Origin: Planctomycetota bacterium
GTDB lineage: Bacteria; Planctomycetota; UBA8108; SXIK01
NCBI GenBank assembly: GCA_965223265.1
Contig: OZ244999.1
Coordinates: forward strand, 864,001 to 928,000
Reading direction: 5' to 3'
DNA length: 64,000 nt
Shown here piece after piece: positions 39,758 to 43,031 of the stretch. The notes under the pieces were generated by a model, which was not told where the DNA came from, made no database searches, and was given only the letters and a program-made list of their open reading frames with translations. A program made the translations under genes and the position numbers. Position 1 is the stretch's first letter; every line of letters starts with the position of its first letter.

Positions 39758-40507
39758 GTGCTGGTGCTGGTTGCGCTCCACCGCTGGGGATTTCGCCGGC
39801 CGGCCGCGCCGTGCGAGCCTCTTCTTGCCACGCCGTTCGATGCGCTACTTCTTTTGTTCTTCTGGTTTTTGGCGCAGGCCGCGGCCCATACGATTGTTGG
39901 TCAATTGCTCGGCACGCAAGAGTTGAGCGCCGACGTCGTGTTTCTCTCCAGCCTCGTCGTCGCCGCGCTCGTGTTCTTGGTGCTCGCCGCCTACGGCCGT
40001 GTCACGGGGCAGAGCTGGTCTGCCTTCGGATTTCGCCTGCCGCACCGCAGTGCGCTGTGGTTGCCGCTGTTTCTGCTCGCTTCGTGGTGGCTCGTTCAGT
40101 GTGTCGCACTCGTGTGGAAAGCGATGCTGGACAGAGGCGGCTACAACACCGAACCGCAGCAAGTGATCTTTATCCTTCGCGACCTTGCTGCAGACCATGA
40201 CGTTCTGGCAGTGGTGAAGTTTGCGGTGGCGTCGATTCTCCTCGCTCCGTTGATCGAAGAGATCGTATTTCGCGGCTTTTTTTTCGCTGCGCTCGAAACT
40301 CGGTTTGGATTCGCTCTCGCAGCGAGCATCTCGAGTTTCATTTTTGCGGTGGTTCATCTCAACCTGTTGACGCTGGCGCCGCTTGCTCTTCTCGGTTTTA
40401 TCTTCTGCTATCTTTATCAGCGCACGGGATCACTGTGGCTGCCCATCGCCTATCACAGCCTTTTCAACGGCGCGAACACGATTCTCGGGATTCTCGGGGA
40501 GTCGTAG
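39758..40507 (+). CDS. CPBP (CAAX/Abi) family intramembrane metalloprotease; start uncertain
   Basis: APLIEEIVFRG, FAVVH, HSLFN. Confidence 0.9.
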   Translation: MLVLVALHRWGFRRPAAPCEPLLATPFDALLLLFFWFLAQAAAHTIVGQLLGTQELSADVVFLSSLVVAALVFLVLAAYGRVTGQSWSAFGFRLPHRSALWLPLFLLASWWLVQCVALVWKAMLDRGGYNTEPQQVIFILRDLAADHDVLAVVKFAVASILLAPLIEEIVFRGFFFAALETRFGFALAASISSFIFAVVHLNLLTLAPLALLGFIFCYLYQRTGSLWLPIAYHSLFNGANTILGILGES

Positions 40508-40520
40508 GGACGGCGGGGCT

Positions 40521-40587
40521 GGAGCGGAGGCAGAGCCAGATACAGATACAGATACAGATACAGATACAGAGACGGAAGGCAGAGACA
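40521..40587. repeat. Hexamer-phased repeat tract (GANNCN; CAGATA x ~5.7), left part
   Basis: gag gca gag cca gat aca gat aca ... gag acg; continues beyond the IS at 42242-42272. Confidence 0.9.
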
Positions 40588-40619
40588 CCTATGGTCCGAC
40601 TGTTGTCAACGGGGGAGCT

Positions 40620-41060
40620 TTCTTTTCTTGATTGTCTTCAATCCGACGTGGGGCAGTTGGGTTGCCTGGGGGTCCGGGGGGCGGCGGGTAGAGCGCCCCC
40701 GGGCTCTGTGCAGCCCGGAAGGTACCGCACGCGGGAGAGATCATTTTCGTAGTAGTGCTGTGTTGTCTTTGGGCTGGCGGTAAAGAAGCCAAGTGTTCGG
40801 TTCGCTCTGAGCGCCGGGGCGGCAAAGCGCCTCGCGGCCAACTCCTATGCGTGTCCGCTCTCTGGCGGATCACCTGATACTGCGTTCGCATCGCGGCAGG
40901 CGAACCGACAAGGACGGTTCCTTCTGAGAAGCACGGCGGCTTGGAAAGCCAGCCCAGCCTCTGCTCGAACGCGTCCTACAGTCGGCCAAGAATCCGAGTC
41001 AGCCCTGCAGGTCCCTCCGTTTGAGTTGGGTTGGTGTGTTGAGCCTGTTGCTGGTCATCG
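40620..41060 (-). ncRNA. Candidate bridge RNA / seekRNA region of the IS110 element
   Basis: ~470 nt without a credible ORF downstream of tnp; nested stems 40771-78/40948-55 and 40798-805/40900-07 plus inner hairpins; boundaries uncertain. Confidence 0.65.
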
Positions 41061-41062
41061 AA

Positions 41063-42190
41063 TTAGGAACTGAGCCGTGCCAACGGAGGTGGTACGTCAG
41101 TGCTGAGGAATCGCCAGAGCGAAATGAGCAGCTTTCTGGCTAAGGCGACGATTCCCGCCTTGCGCGAGCGCTTGGTGCCTGGCCCATAGCGCTGGCAGAA
41201 CCATTGAGATAGCTGGCTCTGTGGCTGAAAGCGCAGCCAGTTCCAGGCAGCCTGAACCATGAGTGTGCGTACACGCCCGTTGCCAGCTTTGCTGATTCCT
41301 TGCTCGCGTTTGATGTTGTCACTGCGCCAGGGAACGCTCACCATTCCTGCCAGGGCTCCGATTTCACGGCGATTGTTGAACTTACGCCAGAAGAACTCGT
41401 AGTAGAGCGTTGCGGCAGTGTACATGCCGATGCCGCGCAGGCTGTTGAGCTTGCCGACTTTCTTGCAGGCCTCCGGCGAGTTGGTGAGCGTTTCGAGAGT
41501 CTCGGCCTCAATCTCAGCGATTTGCTCTTCGACAAGCTGCAGCCGAGCGTGCTCGCGTAGCATGCCTGCCTTGGCATGCGGGGGGATCGCAGATCCATCG
41601 GGGCCGCGTAACGTGTCGATGATTTCAGGCAGCTTCTTGAGGCGGGCGCGGATGCCGAACTTGATCAACATGTCCTTGAGGCGATTGATGTGCCGAGTGC
41701 GATCCTTGACAAGGCGCTGACGCTCTCTTGGCAGGCGGCGCTCGTCCTCGATCTGCACGCTCGGCACGTTGACAACGCGCAGTGGGCTGCGCGACGAGCC
41801 GTGGTGACGGATCAAAAGATCGAGCATCTTCTCTCCGTCGAGGCGATCGGTCTTTTGACGCTTGGCGCGCTGATCGACCTCGCAGCTAGCCGGGTCAATG
41901 ACGGCGTTGTGGATCCCACTGTCTACGAGCCAACGGTGCAGCCAGAATCCATCGCGGCCAGCTTCGTAGCAGCTCACCACCTCAGCTTGCGGCGAAAGGC
42001 GCAAGCGCGCCTTGGCTTTCGAGAGCTCTTCCTGAAACTCCGCAAGGTTTCCCGCCTCGACCGTCCTGCAGCGCGGCCGGCTCCCCGCAACACCGCTGAC
42101 GAGCTTCCACGTTGTGTTGCCAACGTCAATTGCCACGTGAAGAACTTCGCTCATGTCGGTAAGCTGTCCCTGGGTCGTTCTTGTTGCCAT
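41063..42190 (-). CDS. IS110 family transposase/recombinase (DEDD RuvC-like + Tnp serine domain)
   Basis: AIDVG, CYEAGRDGFWLHR, KTDRLD, GIG, PWRSD, GISKAGN, ALARKLL; AGGAG SD. Confidence 0.95.
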   Translation of the reverse strand: MATRTTQGQLTDMSEVLHVAIDVGNTTWKLVSGVAGSRPRCRTVEAGNLAEFQEELSKAKARLRLSPQAEVVSCYEAGRDGFWLHRWLVDSGIHNAVIDPASCEVDQRAKRQKTDRLDGEKMLDLLIRHHGSSRSPLRVVNVPSVQIEDERRLPRERQRLVKDRTRHINRLKDMLIKFGIRARLKKLPEIIDTLRGPDGSAIPPHAKAGMLREHARLQLVEEQIAEIEAETLETLTNSPEACKKVGKLNSLRGIGMYTAATLYYEFFWRKFNNRREIGALAGMVSVPWRSDNIKREQGISKAGNGRVRTLMVQAAWNWLRFQPQSQLSQWFCQRYGPGTKRSRKAGIVALARKLLISLWRFLSTDVPPPLARLSS

Positions 42191-42333
42191 CTCTTCACTC
42201 CTAAAAAAGACTATGGTACACGAGGACGGCCCATAGTTTCTGAGACGGAGACGGAAGGCAGAGACAGAGGCCACGCCCACGCACACCGATTGAGCTGAAC
42301 GTAGAGAAGAGCTCTGCTGCCCCGGGCGTGCGT

Positions 42334-42469
42334 GCGGCGGCGGTTTTGTCGATCGTAACCGAACGAGAGACGGCCTCAAGGGTGCCCTCGCTGCGCTCGG
42401 CGCTTCGCGCCTTCTGAGAGTGACCGCGCCCCGTCTCTCGTTCGGTCGGCGGCAGTGAAACGCCGCCGC
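42334..42469 (+). other. Branched hairpin (structured RNA or REP-like element) upstream of the four-helix-bundle gene
   Basis: Perfect 16-bp IR 42358-73/42431-46, outer 9-bp IR 42334-42/42461-69, inner CTCGCTGCGCTCG and CGCTTCGCG motifs. Confidence 0.7.
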
Positions 42470-42514
42470 GTCGGGCGTCGGCGACAGGTCACTCAGCCGT
42501 TACCGGAGTCACAC

Positions 42515-42837
42515 ATGGGCTTTCTTGCTCTGGATCACACTTTTGGCATTGTTCGTCAGCTGCGTCCCCTTGTCTCGAGCATCCGTCGTCACGACTCAAA
42601 GCTTGCCGCTCAGCTGCGCGATGCCGGTTCGTCTGTGGCACTCAACCTTGGCGAGGCAATCGGCGTCAAGGTCGTGACCGCGGACACCTTTGGCGCATTG
42701 CTTCGGGTAGCGCCGAAGAGGTGCGCACGGCGCTCAAGGTTGCCGCAGCGTGGGGCTATATCGATGCATCGCAGATCGACGCGGTACTTGCGGACATCGA
42801 TGCGCTGCAGGCGATGCTTTGGAAGCTGATTCGCTAA
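42515..42837 (+). pseudogene. Four-helix bundle protein (23S rRNA IVP / Avd-like) with a single-base frameshift
   Basis: GGAG SD; LAAQLRDAGSSVALNLGE continues in another frame as GNRRQGRDRGHLWRIASGSAEEVRTALKVAAAWGYI...LWKLIR*; one G missing near 42655. Confidence 0.85.
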
Positions 42838-42884
42838 CGTGGCCTCGGCTCGCTGCGCTATTCGGTGCGGCGGGTTTGATAAGG

Positions 42885-42950
42885 AGGCAGAGTCGGATAC
42901 AGATCCGGAGTCAGGTGCAGACTCAGCGGCACCCCACGCACACACCGCAT
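42885..42950. repeat. Degenerate GANNCN hexamer tract downstream of the four-helix-bundle gene
   Basis: gag gca gag tcg gat aca gat ccg gag tca ggt gca gac tca, then CCCACGCACAC as also seen near 42276. Confidence 0.7.
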
Positions 42951-43031
42951 CACCGGTCGCCCGGCGCTCAGCTCGCAACCGTCTGCGCGAACCCTGGGCG
43001 CTTCACGGTGAGCCTTGGCGGCAAGAGCAGC

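What the first reader, a model, noticed from the sequence alone, without database searches (positions are those of the whole stretch)
40587..42246. IS110/IS1111-type RNA-guided recombinase element with a long structured 3' ncRNA
Seen: an intact DEDD + Ser transposase, subterminal IRs, an outward TTGACA at 40604-09 (-), and a ~470-nt downstream region with nested stems. The predicted circle junction is CCATAG-TTTCTGAGACAC-CTATGG. On the RNA strand, an inner hairpin is flanked by CAGTATCAG (6/9 match to donor TAGTTTCTG) and CATAGGAGT (8/9 match to the other donor half read on the opposite strand, CATAGGTGT), the geometry expected of a donor-binding loop. TCTCAGAA also matches the junction. Established: IS110/IS1111 elements encode bridge/seekRNAs. 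Inference: a new programmable member; the target guide could not be pinned down by eye.
Basis: partly seen in the sequence, partly recalled or inferred. Interest (0 to 1): 0.78.

Follow-up and report, generated by a model that had tools for sequence, protein, structure and literature searches.

The report
Bridge-RNA insertion sequence targeting a microsatellite
This is a recently active jumping gene of the known IS110/IS1111 RNA-guided kind, whose own small RNA carries four short guide stretches that match its ends and a six-base simple repeat into which all eight genome copies are inserted.

Summary
The finding is real and its main reading holds. Window 40588-42241 (minus strand) is a 1654-bp IS110-family element. 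It has an intact transposase (Pfam PF01548+PF02371; NCBIfam "IS110 family RNA-guided transposase"), 10/12 subterminal inverted repeats and an outward TTGACA. It is present in 8 near-identical copies.

About 140 relatives (38-50% protein identity) carry a conserved structured RNA downstream of the transposase. In the window this lies at about 40771-41005. Four RNA segments covary with DNA across these relatives:
- RTG and LTG flank hairpin P0 and match the right and left flanks.
- RDG and LDG flank hairpin P3 and match the left and right element ends.

In this element:
- RTG (GCAGAGGC) pairs with the (CCTCTG)n hexamer repeat that flanks all 8 copies.
- LTG reads CUC-AG-AA.
- LDG (CAUAGG-AG) equals the predicted circle junction CCATAGG|AGAAAC.

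The boundaries were off by 1 and 5 nt, the circle junction was wrong, and the target guide was missed.

Three features are unusual: the microsatellite target, a T-for-A mismatch at the first core base in all 8 insertions, and a five-copy tandem array.

I file it as a new member of a known kind, of moderate interest.

The parts
40588..42241 (-). Whole insertion sequence, 1654 bp. In transposase orientation it reads AGAAACTATGG...CCATAGG.
   Evidence: The ends come from 8 copies whose similarity stops at ...GAGRCA|CCTATGG and ...CATAGTTTCT|GAGRC. The hexamer phase is preserved across the insertion. The core model is validated by an empty site of a relative.
41063..42190 (-). Transposase (RNA-guided recombinase) gene, 375 aa.
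   Evidence: Pfam PF01548 and PF02371. NCBIfam NF033542 at 194.6 bits against a cutoff of 140. Intact in all 8 copies.
42225..42236 (.). Left-end subterminal inverted repeat (CTATGGGCCGTC in transposase orientation).
   Evidence: Matches the right-end repeat at 10 of 12 positions. CTATG is conserved at the left end of relatives.
40589..40600 (.). Right-end subterminal inverted repeat (GTCGGACCATAG in transposase orientation).
40604..40609 (-). Outward-facing TTGACA (-35-like box), 16 nt from the right end.
   Evidence: A TTGAC-like box at a conserved distance from the right end was found in 51 of 64 motif-bearing entries. A role as half of a junction promoter is inferred.
40771..41005 (-). Predicted bridge/seekRNA domain. 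The conserved core is 40797-40964; the outer closing stem is 41000-41005 with 40771-40776.
   Evidence: An nhmmer profile found the motif in 72 of 80 downstream regions. It hits exactly the 8 copies in the genome. Fold. The RNA's true 5' and 3' ends are unknown.
40956..40964 (-). Right-target guide (RTG), GCAGAGGC-U. It is complementary to the top strand G+CCTCTGC of the right flank.
   Evidence: 8 contiguous Watson-Crick pairs in 7 of 8 copies; the window copy has 7 plus one G-T. Family covariation: 29 of 50 and 33 of 45 elements have at least 6 nt, against 5.6% and 9.1% in mismatched pairs.
40935..40954 (-). Hairpin P0, between the two target guides.
   Evidence: mean z -1.66; at least 4 bp in 44 of 52; the outer pairs are kept, and 4 of 6 pairs show changes on both sides.
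40922..40931 (-). Left-target guide plus core plus handshake-like bases: CUUCUC-AG-AA. It is identical to left flank CTC + AG + AA of the left end.
   Evidence: Family covariation: 33 of 53 and 19 of 45 elements have at least 3 nt identical to their own left flank, against 3.7% and 1.8% in controls.
40874..40884 (-). Right-donor guide (RDG), CGCAGUAUCAG. It is partly complementary to the left end AGAAACTATGG.
   Evidence: The variable base covaries with the left end in 37 of 45 relatives, 13.2 expected. In this element I counted 7 of 9 positions pairing.
40851..40873 (-). Hairpin P3, between the two donor guides.
   Evidence: RNAalifold. 94.9% of cells paired, and 7 of 8 pairs have compensatory changes.
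40841..40850 (-). Left-donor guide plus core plus one handshake-like base: GCAUAGG-AG-U. It is identical to right end CCATAGG + AG.
   Evidence: Matches the predicted circle junction at 8 of 8 positions. The family's variable positions covary with the right end: 47 of 49, 47 of 49 and 44 of 49.
40813..40838 (-). Hairpin P4.
   Evidence: mean z -1.80; at least 4 bp in 52 of 52.
40797..40805 (-). 3' strand of long-range helix P5 (GCGAACCGA). It pairs with 40900-40908 (UCGGUUCGC) and closes the multiloop that holds the donor guides.
   Evidence: At least 5 bp with the element's own partner in 30 of 52, against 69 of 208 with swapped partners. This is weaker evidence.
40570..40587 (.). Target tract on the right-flank side, a (CAGAGR)n-type hexamer repeat. 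CA at 40586-40587 is the target's own core (TG in transposase orientation).
42242..42266 (.). Target tract on the left-flank side (GAGACGGAGACGGAAGGCAGAGACA).

Best explanation
Window 40588-42241 is an autonomous, recently active IS110-family insertion sequence of the IS1111-like layout: short left end, transposase, long downstream non-coding region, subterminal inverted repeats.

The downstream region encodes a bridge/seekRNA of about 170-235 nt with two binding sites.

Target site:
- RTG (GCAGAGGC-U) lies 5' of hairpin P0 and pairs with the top strand of the right half-target.
- LTG (CUC-AG-AA) lies 3' of P0 and pairs with the bottom strand of the left half-target.

Donor site, inside a multiloop closed by helix P5:
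- RDG (GCAGUAUCAG) lies 5' of hairpin P3 and pairs with the left end.
- LDG (CAUAGG-AG-U) lies 3' of P3 and pairs with the bottom strand of the right end.

Inferred cycle: the element excises as a circle with junction CCATAGG|AGAAACTATGG. This would bring the right-end TTGACA next to a -10-like hexamer in the left end. The RNA-recombinase complex then inserts the circle, in one orientation, into (CCTCTG)n hexamer repeats between CTC and TG.

The RNA and the donor specify an AG core, but the repeat offers TG. The left junction therefore keeps AG and the right junction keeps TG.

Shown here: family membership of the protein, copy number and identity, the ends, the flanks, and family-wide covariation of all four RNA segments with the DNA.

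Inferred: that the RNA is made and bound, that a circle forms, that the junction makes a promoter, and that recombination occurs as in IS621 and ISEc11.
For: Protein:
- PF02371 (E 3.6e-14) and PF01548 (E 4.1e-10).
- NF033542 'IS110 family RNA-guided transposase', 194.6 bits against a cutoff of 140.
- E65, D104, D107 and S279 invariant in 21 of 21 aligned homologues.

Activity:
- 8 copies differ at 4 single-base columns plus an 89-bp duplication in 3 of 8.
- All 8 ORFs are open.
- They occupy at least 4 separate genomic places.

RNA motif:
- Found downstream of the transposase in 72 of 80 regions (79 genome loci plus this element).
- Found only at the 8 copies in this genome.

Guide covariation, with ends located independently of the guides:
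- LTG: at least 3 nt identical to the own left flank in 33 of 53, against 3.7% of mismatched pairs.
- RTG: at least 6-nt exact complement of the own right flank in 29 of 50, against 5.6%.
- LDG: 47 of 49, 47 of 49 and 44 of 49 agree at three variable positions (expected 30.6, 39.9, 19.4). The next base agrees in 2 of 49 (expected 2.2), which marks the end of the guide.
- RDG: 37 of 45 complementary (expected 13.2).

Replication on 80 metagenome loci:
- RTG 33 of 45 against 9.1%.
- LTG 19 of 45 against 1.8%.

Structure:
- P3 is 94.9% paired, with 7 of 8 pairs compensatory.
- Whole-structure covariation score is 0.514 against 0.169 in shuffles (0 of 500 reach it) and at most 0.181 when the pairs are slid.

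Boundary model:
- In the genome of relative L052 an exact empty copy of the insertion site reads GGATAA-AG-TCCAGC, with 40 nt identical on each side.
- The occupied site has AG on both sides of the element.

This element:
- RTG makes 8 Watson-Crick pairs with G+CCTCTGC in 7 of 8 copies.
- All 8 copies have the same orientation in the repeat.

Literature:
- The guide order (top-strand complement 5' of the bottom-strand match) and the downstream location match what Siddiquee et al. report for IS1111-type seekRNAs (PMC11187229, sections read).
- Donor-binding bases in a multiloop match Durrant et al.'s remark on IS1111 orthologues (PMC11208160, section 12).
Against: - No expression, circle-junction or activity data.
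- Rfam has no match.
- The fold is not more stable than shuffles (z -1.07).
- Hairpin P1 is not supported (mean z -0.18). Helix P5 is only moderately supported.
- The left-target guide pairs with only 3-4 bases plus the core G.
- Both target guides and the donor specify A at core position 1, but all 8 insertions are at T. The 'ideal' site CCTCAGCCTCTGC occurs 0 times in the genome. Either a core mismatch is tolerated or part of my core model is wrong for this element.
- RDG has 2 mismatches to this element's own left end.
- Some relatives show no LTG match: 11 of 53 score 0. This may be mislocated ends or real exceptions.
- No sigma-70-like promoter is found in the linear element. The junction -10 candidate (GAAACT) is poor.
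Confidence: 0.85

Rival explanations
1. The element is what it seems, but the boundaries and circle junction are those of the first reader: element 40587-42246, junction CCATAG-TTTCTGAGACAC-CTATGG. On this view CATAGGAGT reads right end plus flank rather than right end plus donor core.
For: In relatives the 3' donor-loop segment is identical to right end plus the next base of the flank in the integrated copy (44 of 49). 'End plus flank' is therefore literally what is seen there. In the window copy CATAGGTGT matches the RNA at 8 of 9 positions.
Against: - Bases 42242-42246 and 40587 vary or belong to the hexamer repeat among the 8 copies.
- In relatives the flank agreement is explained by the shared AG core plus one base. 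The empty site of L052 shows AG once.
- With the 40588-42241 ends the RNA matches the junction at 8 of 8 positions instead of 8 of 9.
Confidence: 0.05
2. The downstream conserved region is not a guide RNA. It would be a 3' UTR, a terminator or a protein-binding DNA site, and target choice would be made by the protein alone.
For: No RNA evidence was obtained. There is no Rfam hit. The fold energy is unremarkable.
Against: - Four separate segments covary with flanks and ends that differ between elements.
- Hairpins keep pairing through compensatory changes.
- The same arrangement is experimentally established in related IS (PMC11187229 and PMC11208160, sections read).
Confidence: 0.03
3. The copies are relics spread mainly by segmental duplication and homologous recombination, not by ongoing RNA-guided transposition. 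The tandem array at genome 487-496 kb arose by unequal crossing-over.
For: - In the array, long (89-bp duplication) and short copies alternate L-S-L-S-L.
- The long copies share 2-3 single-base variants.
- Two of the four spacers are the same 54 nt. This pattern fits duplication of an S-L unit.
- Tandem cargo repeats are also a reported by-product of an IS110 element (bioRxiv 10.1101/2025.10.25.684509, passages read).
Against: - Three copies lie elsewhere with unrelated flanks outside the repeat, and all are in the same register and orientation of the hexamer. At least 4 independent targeted insertions are therefore needed.
- All ORFs are intact.
Confidence: 0.07
4. The mechanism is the same, but the element and its roughly 380-aa relatives form a separate subgroup that is neither canonical IS1111 nor IS110.
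For: - The transposase is 375 aa (relatives 377-387 aa), against 330-350 aa quoted for IS1111.
- The junction spacer between the inverted repeats is 6 nt, against 7+3 quoted.
- The motif reads GMVSVPWRSD instead of GL-P----S(t)G.
- The only solved structure found is ISCro4, at E 3.8e-6.
Against: The layout, the inverted repeats and the guide order are those given for IS1111. No tree with named reference elements could be made, so this remains open.
Confidence: 0.3

Closest known systems
IS1111-type elements with seekRNA (ISEc11, ISPa11, ISKpn4, ISPst6; Siddiquee et al. 2024, PMC11187229, sections 4, 6, 8, 9, 10, 13 read)
   Same: - DEDD-plus-Ser transposase.
- Long non-coding region downstream of the gene.
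- Subterminal inverted repeats.
- RNA with a top-strand-complementary segment 5' of a bottom-strand-complementary segment around a hairpin.
- One fixed orientation in a specific target.
- Repeated sequences as targets (REP for ISPa11).
   Different: - The target is a hexanucleotide simple repeat.
- The transposase is about 30 aa longer.
- The spacer between the inverted repeats in the predicted junction is 6 nt, not 10.
- The SG of the catalytic loop is SD.
- Here nothing is shown experimentally.
IS621 bridge RNA (Durrant et al. 2024, PMC11208160, section 12 and passages read; Hiraizumi et al. 2024, PMC11208158, passages on handshake guides read)
   Same: - Two binding sites, each with two guides that read opposite strands of target and donor.
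- A 2-nt core shared by target and donor in relatives (AG here, CT in IS621).
- Guide bases just beyond the core that match the recombined product. These resemble handshake guides.
   Different: - The RNA is downstream, not upstream, of the gene.
- The order of guides in each site is reversed.
- The donor guides sit in a multiloop.
- The handshake-like bases follow the left guides rather than the right ones.
- The protein is so distant that IS621 is not found by phmmer at E 0.001.
ISCro4 transposase (PDB 9t56)
   Same: It is the only solved structure with detectable sequence similarity (E 3.8e-6, C-terminal domain).
   Different: The similarity is weak and partial. I did not compare its RNA or its target.
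ISPpu9 of Pseudomonas putida (PMC12288879; only the search listing and the start of the abstract seen)
   Same: An IS110-family element inserted in a genomic repeat (REP), with a small RNA gene downstream of the transposase.
   Different: It has orphan copies of the RNA gene elsewhere in its genome. Here the RNA motif occurs only inside the 8 copies.

Membership tests
IS110 family (RNA-guided DEDD transposases) | Protein has the RuvC-like DEDD domain and the C-terminal Tnp domain with the catalytic Ser. | tested here: met
   PF01548 and PF02371 above their cutoffs. NF033542 at 194.6 bits against 140. E65, D104, D107 and S279 invariant; first acidic residue D or E.
IS110 family (RNA-guided DEDD transposases) | Site- and orientation-specific insertion without a long target duplication. 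| tested here: met
   8 of 8 copies are in the same register and orientation of the hexamer repeat. The empty site of a relative shows only the 2-nt core on both sides.
IS1111 group | The longer non-coding region lies downstream of the transposase gene. | tested here: met
   475 nt downstream (40588-41062) against 51 nt upstream (42191-42241).
IS1111 group | Subterminal inverted repeats of about 7-17 bp (usually 11-13). | tested here: met
   12 bp with 10 matches.
IS1111 group | Terminal extensions of 7 bp (left) and 3 bp (right) beyond the inverted repeats. | tested here: not met
   Extensions here are 5 nt (AGAAA) and 1 nt (G). Relatives have AGATN and A, plus the AG core. The junction spacer is 6 nt, not 10. 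The count depends on how the repeat edge and the core are defined.
IS1111 group | Transposase of 330-350 aa with the GL-P----S(t)G motif. | tested here: not met
   375 aa, with motif GMVSVPWRSD. The relatives' consensus is GLVPxPxxSG.
IS1111 group | Transposase falls in the IS1111 clade of a tree with named references. | not tested
   No named reference sequences were available from the tools. Supplementary tables of the papers are closed.
Bridge RNA / seekRNA | RNA segments complementary to both strands of the target, differing between elements in step with their targets. | tested here: met
Bridge RNA / seekRNA | RNA segments matching the donor ends (donor-binding loop). | tested here: met
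Bridge RNA / seekRNA | The RNA is transcribed, binds the recombinase and is required for recombination. | not testable with these tools
Bridge RNA / seekRNA | The core dinucleotide is identical in target and donor. | tested here: not met
   For this element the donor and RNA specify AG, while the target is TG in 8 of 8 copies. The feature is met in relatives: A at core position 1 in 45 of 45.

The most novel reading that the evidence does not exclude
This element may have specialised on a degenerate simple-sequence repeat in a way not described for bridge or seek RNAs.
- Its guides place G and U where the repeat varies (C or T). Wobble pairs would then let one RNA read many repeat variants.
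- It inserts despite a fixed mismatch at the first core base, always keeping AG on the left and the target's TG on the right. This points to exchange on the 5' side of the core with no lasting heteroduplex.
- Because the target is a tandem repeat, the two target guides are complementary to each other and can close the target loop in the free RNA.
- Every insertion leaves fresh targets on both sides, which would seed tandem arrays of the element.
Probability: 0.3. Interest if true: 0.55.

Novelty: new member of a known kind. Interest (0 to 1): 0.42.

Why it matters
This report gives a complete, testable guide code for one natural element and, by covariation, for a large and so far unnamed set of roughly 380-aa IS110-family recombinases. 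More than 8000 database proteins match at E <= 1e-20, the scoring cap. The code specifies which RNA bases read the left flank, the right flank, the left end and the right end, that the core is AG, and where the element ends.

That is the information needed to try these enzymes as programmable recombinases.

The element also offers a natural case of insertion with a core mismatch and into a simple repeat. This bears on how strict the core rule is and on how such elements shape repeat tracts. It does not change the known picture of the mechanism.

Tried and rejected
- Rfam scan of 40000-43000 at E <= 1 found nothing.
- A protein search in 40 related genomes at E <= 1e-30 found no relative. There are therefore no close kin for an empty-site comparison of the window locus.
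- A blind search for inverted repeats (13-mers, up to 2 mismatches) did not recover even this element's own repeat and was dropped.
- Column-wise covariation on the nhmmer and MAFFT alignments recovered only P3 and part of P0. P1 is not supported. P5 could be tested only by a partner-swap fold.
- The first guide tests located the ends with the guides themselves, which is circular. They were replaced by tests with independently located ends.
- The metagenome scan gave no relative closer than 48%.
- The promoter scan found no sigma-70-like site in the linear element.
- Literature: 0 papers hold 'IS110 family' + 'microsatellite' + 'target site'. 2 papers hold 'bridge RNA' + 'tandem repeat' + 'IS1111' + 'target', and neither describes a simple-repeat target as far as I read. 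That reading covers passages of one paper and the listing only of the other. These two searches are the whole basis for saying a microsatellite target is not in print.
- Supplementary tables (for example Durrant Table 5, and the Siddiquee target logos) were closed and may already list this subgroup.
Full report
**What is there.** The minus strand of window 41063-42190 encodes a 375-aa protein, with AGGAG 7 nt upstream of the ATG. It matches Pfam Transposase_20 (E 3.6e-14) and DEDD_Tnp_IS110 (E 4.1e-10). It also matches NCBIfam NF033542 'IS110 family RNA-guided transposase' at 194.6 bits against a cutoff of 140. In an alignment with 20 homologues, E65, D104, D107 and S279 are invariant. The first acidic residue is D in 6 sequences and E in 15. 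The only solved structure that phmmer finds is the ISCro4 transposase, at E 3.8e-6. Rfam has no match in 40000-43000.

**Copies and ends.** The window's genome (9.18 Mb, one contig) holds 8 copies:
- the window copy;
- a head-to-tail array of five at 487-496 kb;
- single copies at 0.74 Mb and 5.87 Mb.

The copies differ at 4 single-base columns and by an 89-bp tandem duplication after window position 40658 in 3 of 8. All 8 reading frames are open.

Similarity between copies stops at ...GAGRCA|CCTATGG on one side and ...CCCATAGTTTCT|GAGRC on the other. In every copy the flanks are a (CAGAGR)n hexamer repeat, which reads (CCTCTG)n in transposase orientation. The repeat phase runs on across the insertion if the element is 40588-42241 (1654 bp).

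Its inverted repeats (10 of 12 matching) and its outward TTGACA at 40604-40609 are correct.

The 18-nt direct repeat around the window copy (40570-40587 and 42249-42266) is part of a pre-existing tandem duplication of the tract. It is not a target duplication.

**Relatives and the conserved RNA.** The protein has very many homologues at about 50% identity, 8000 at E <= 1e-20, which is the scoring cap. The best full-length hit is 71%. None was found in 40 taxonomically related genomes at E <= 1e-30.

I fetched 80 loci from species genomes (38-50% identity). Iterated nhmmer, started from the window's downstream region, found one conserved motif of about 130 nt in 72 of 80 downstream regions. These were 79 loci plus this element; L035 was dropped for lack of sequence. 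In the window the motif is 40808-40939. In this genome the profile hits only the 8 copies.

Read with more flank, the layout from 5' to 3' is:
1. outer stem
2. RTG
3. hairpin P0
4. LTG followed by AGAUGG (AGAAGG here)
5. a weak P1
6. P5 5' strand
7. P2
8. RDG
9. hairpin P3
10. LDG (GGAUAGAAGN in most relatives, GCAUAGGAGU here)
11. hairpin P4
12. P5 3' strand
13. outer stem

**Evidence for structure.**
- RNAalifold calls P3.
- On the MAFFT alignment of 52 sequences, P3 is 94.9% paired, with compensatory changes at 7 of 8 pairs.
- P0 keeps its outer pairs but is poorly aligned inside.
- The covariation score is 0.514, against 0.169 in shuffles (0 of 500 reach it) and at most 0.181 when the pairs are slid.
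- Windows for P0, P3 and P4 fold better than shuffles (mean z -1.66, -1.90, -1.80). P1 does not (-0.18).
- P5 forms with its own partner at 5 bp or more in 30 of 52 sequences, against 69 of 208 with swapped partners. This is weaker support.
- The window RNA alone is not unusually stable (z -1.07).

**Guides.** The decisive evidence is that four RNA segments change together with the DNA around each element. I located the ends without using the guides. The left end was found by AGATNCTATG (up to 1 mismatch). The right end was found by TTGAC, then 9-15 nt, then CATA..[AT]G. The RNA motif was found in 64 of 81 entries, a left end in 56 and a right end in 51.

- **LTG.** The bases before AGAU are identical to the element's own left flank for at least 3 nt in 33 of 53 elements, against 3.7% of mismatched pairs. 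11 of 53 score 0.
- **RTG.** The 46 nt 5' of P0 contain an exact complement of at least 6 nt to G plus the right flank in 29 of 50 elements, against 5.6%.
- **LDG.** Three variable positions agree with the right end, and with the first flank base, in 47 of 49, 47 of 49 and 44 of 49 elements (expected 30.6, 39.9, 19.4). The following base agrees in 2 of 49 (expected 2.2), which marks the end of the guide.
- **RDG.** The variable base is complementary to the base between AGAT and CTATG of the left end in 37 of 45 elements (expected 13.2).

On a second, independent set of 80 metagenome loci the rules held. RTG matched in 33 of 45 against 9.1%, and LTG in 19 of 45 against 1.8%. The flank base after the core agreed in 25 of 45 (expected 13.6), with 15 more showing RNA U opposite top-strand C. 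That is what pairing with the bottom strand through a U-G wobble would give.

An earlier version of these tests used guide-derived ends, so I set it aside as circular.

**Core and boundaries.** In relatives the left junction reads flank-AG-ATNCTATG and the right junction reads CATAGA-AG-flank. For relative L052 the same genome holds an exact empty copy of the insertion site, GGATAA-AG-TCCAGC, with 40 identical bases on each side. AG therefore occurs once in the target and on both sides of the inserted element, like the CT core of IS621.

The bases just after the core in LTG (AU) and LDG (N) match the recombined junctions. In this they resemble the handshake guides described for IS621 (PMC11208158, passages read). 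That likeness is an inference.

**This element.** All sequences are in transposase orientation.
- RTG GCAGAGGC (40957-40964) makes 8 Watson-Crick pairs with G+CCTCTGC of the right flank in 7 of 8 copies. The window copy has 7 plus one G-T.
- LTG reads CUC-AG-AA, matching left flank CTC and left end AGAA.
- LDG reads CAUAGG-AG, which equals right end CCATAGG plus the first two bases of the left end. That is the predicted circle junction CCATAGG|AGAAAC, matched at 8 of 8 positions.
- RDG pairs with the left end at 7 of 9 positions by my reading.

Its TCTCAGAA is the left-target guide. The target guide it could not find lies 5' of hairpin P0.

All three core-reading RNA positions, and the donor, specify AG. 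The repeat offers TG. In 8 of 8 copies the left junction has AG and the right junction has TG. All 45 relatives have A at that position. The 'ideal' site CCTCAGCCTCTGC occurs 0 times in the genome. CTCTGCCTCTGC occurs 60 times and CTCTGTCTCTGC 36 times. There are 75 degenerate tracts of at least 4 units.

I take this as insertion with a tolerated mismatch at the first core base, with exchange on the 5' side of the core. With only about 4 independent insertions, the fixed AG/TG pattern is not statistically strong.

Because the target is a tandem repeat, RTG and LTG are complementary to each other and pair in the predicted free RNA.

**Array.** The five tandem copies are separated by 36, 54, 72 and 54 nt of repeat. 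They alternate long and short forms, and the long forms share variants. That pattern fits duplication of a two-copy unit at least as well as repeated re-insertion. The two dispersed copies and the window copy show that targeted insertion happened several times.

**Comparison and novelty.** The layout, the inverted repeats, the downstream RNA and the order of guides (top-strand complement first) are those reported for IS1111-type seekRNAs (PMC11187229, sections read). Donor bases in a multiloop were noted for IS1111 orthologues by Durrant et al., who predicted bridge RNAs in 93% of IS1111 elements (PMC11208160, section 12).

Three quoted IS1111 features are not met: the 7+3 terminal extensions, the 330-350-aa size, and the exact catalytic-loop motif. 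The subgroup's placement is therefore open.

I found no paper describing a simple-repeat target for this family. The basis is only, and supplements are closed.

The finding is a new member of a known kind, with an unusual target and a natural core mismatch.

**Limits.** The RNA's true ends, the junction promoter (TTGACA plus a poor -10, GAAACT) and the recombination steps are inferred from the families named above.

Noticed in passing
window 42287-42396: A dispersed repeat lies just right of the element. At least 12 other places in the genome match at 84-96% identity. It contains a 16-17-nt inverted repeat, AACCGAACGAGAGACGG / CCGTCTCTCGTTCGGT. It looks like a REP- or MITE-like unit.
   Followed up: no
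window 40537-40587 and 42242-42266: (CAGATA)5.7 abuts the (CAGAGR)-type tract that holds the element. An 18-nt direct repeat, AGACGGAAGGCAGAGACA, flanks the window copy. It reflects a pre-existing tandem duplication of about 25 nt in the tract, not a target duplication.
   Followed up: partly
genome G000:C1:6414623 (+) and 5827939 (-), loci L013 and L012: Two solo relics of the element's right end, about 75 and 118 nt at 81-90% identity. One sits beside (CCCACG)n and (CTCTCA)n-type hexamer tracts, the other beside a CAGAGG-type tract.
   Followed up: partly
genome G000:C1, about 6414850-6415000: A tandem repeat of about 36 nt (GATTCCGAATCTGTCTCTGCCTCCGCCTCT) contains the hexamer-repeat motif.
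   Followed up: no
genome G000:C1:487196-496155: A head-to-tail array of five copies of the element, alternating forms with and without an 89-bp internal duplication. Spacers are 36, 54, 72 and 54 nt of repeat.
   Followed up: partly
L189 (G041:C2:1355103-1355116) against L052: An exact empty-site paralogue of a relative's insertion site in the same genome. The 40 nt on each side are identical, and AG is present once.
   Followed up: yes
alignment A1 (relatives of the transposase): The first residue of the DEDD tetrad is glutamate in 15 of 21 aligned proteins and aspartate in 6, including the window's.
   Followed up: no
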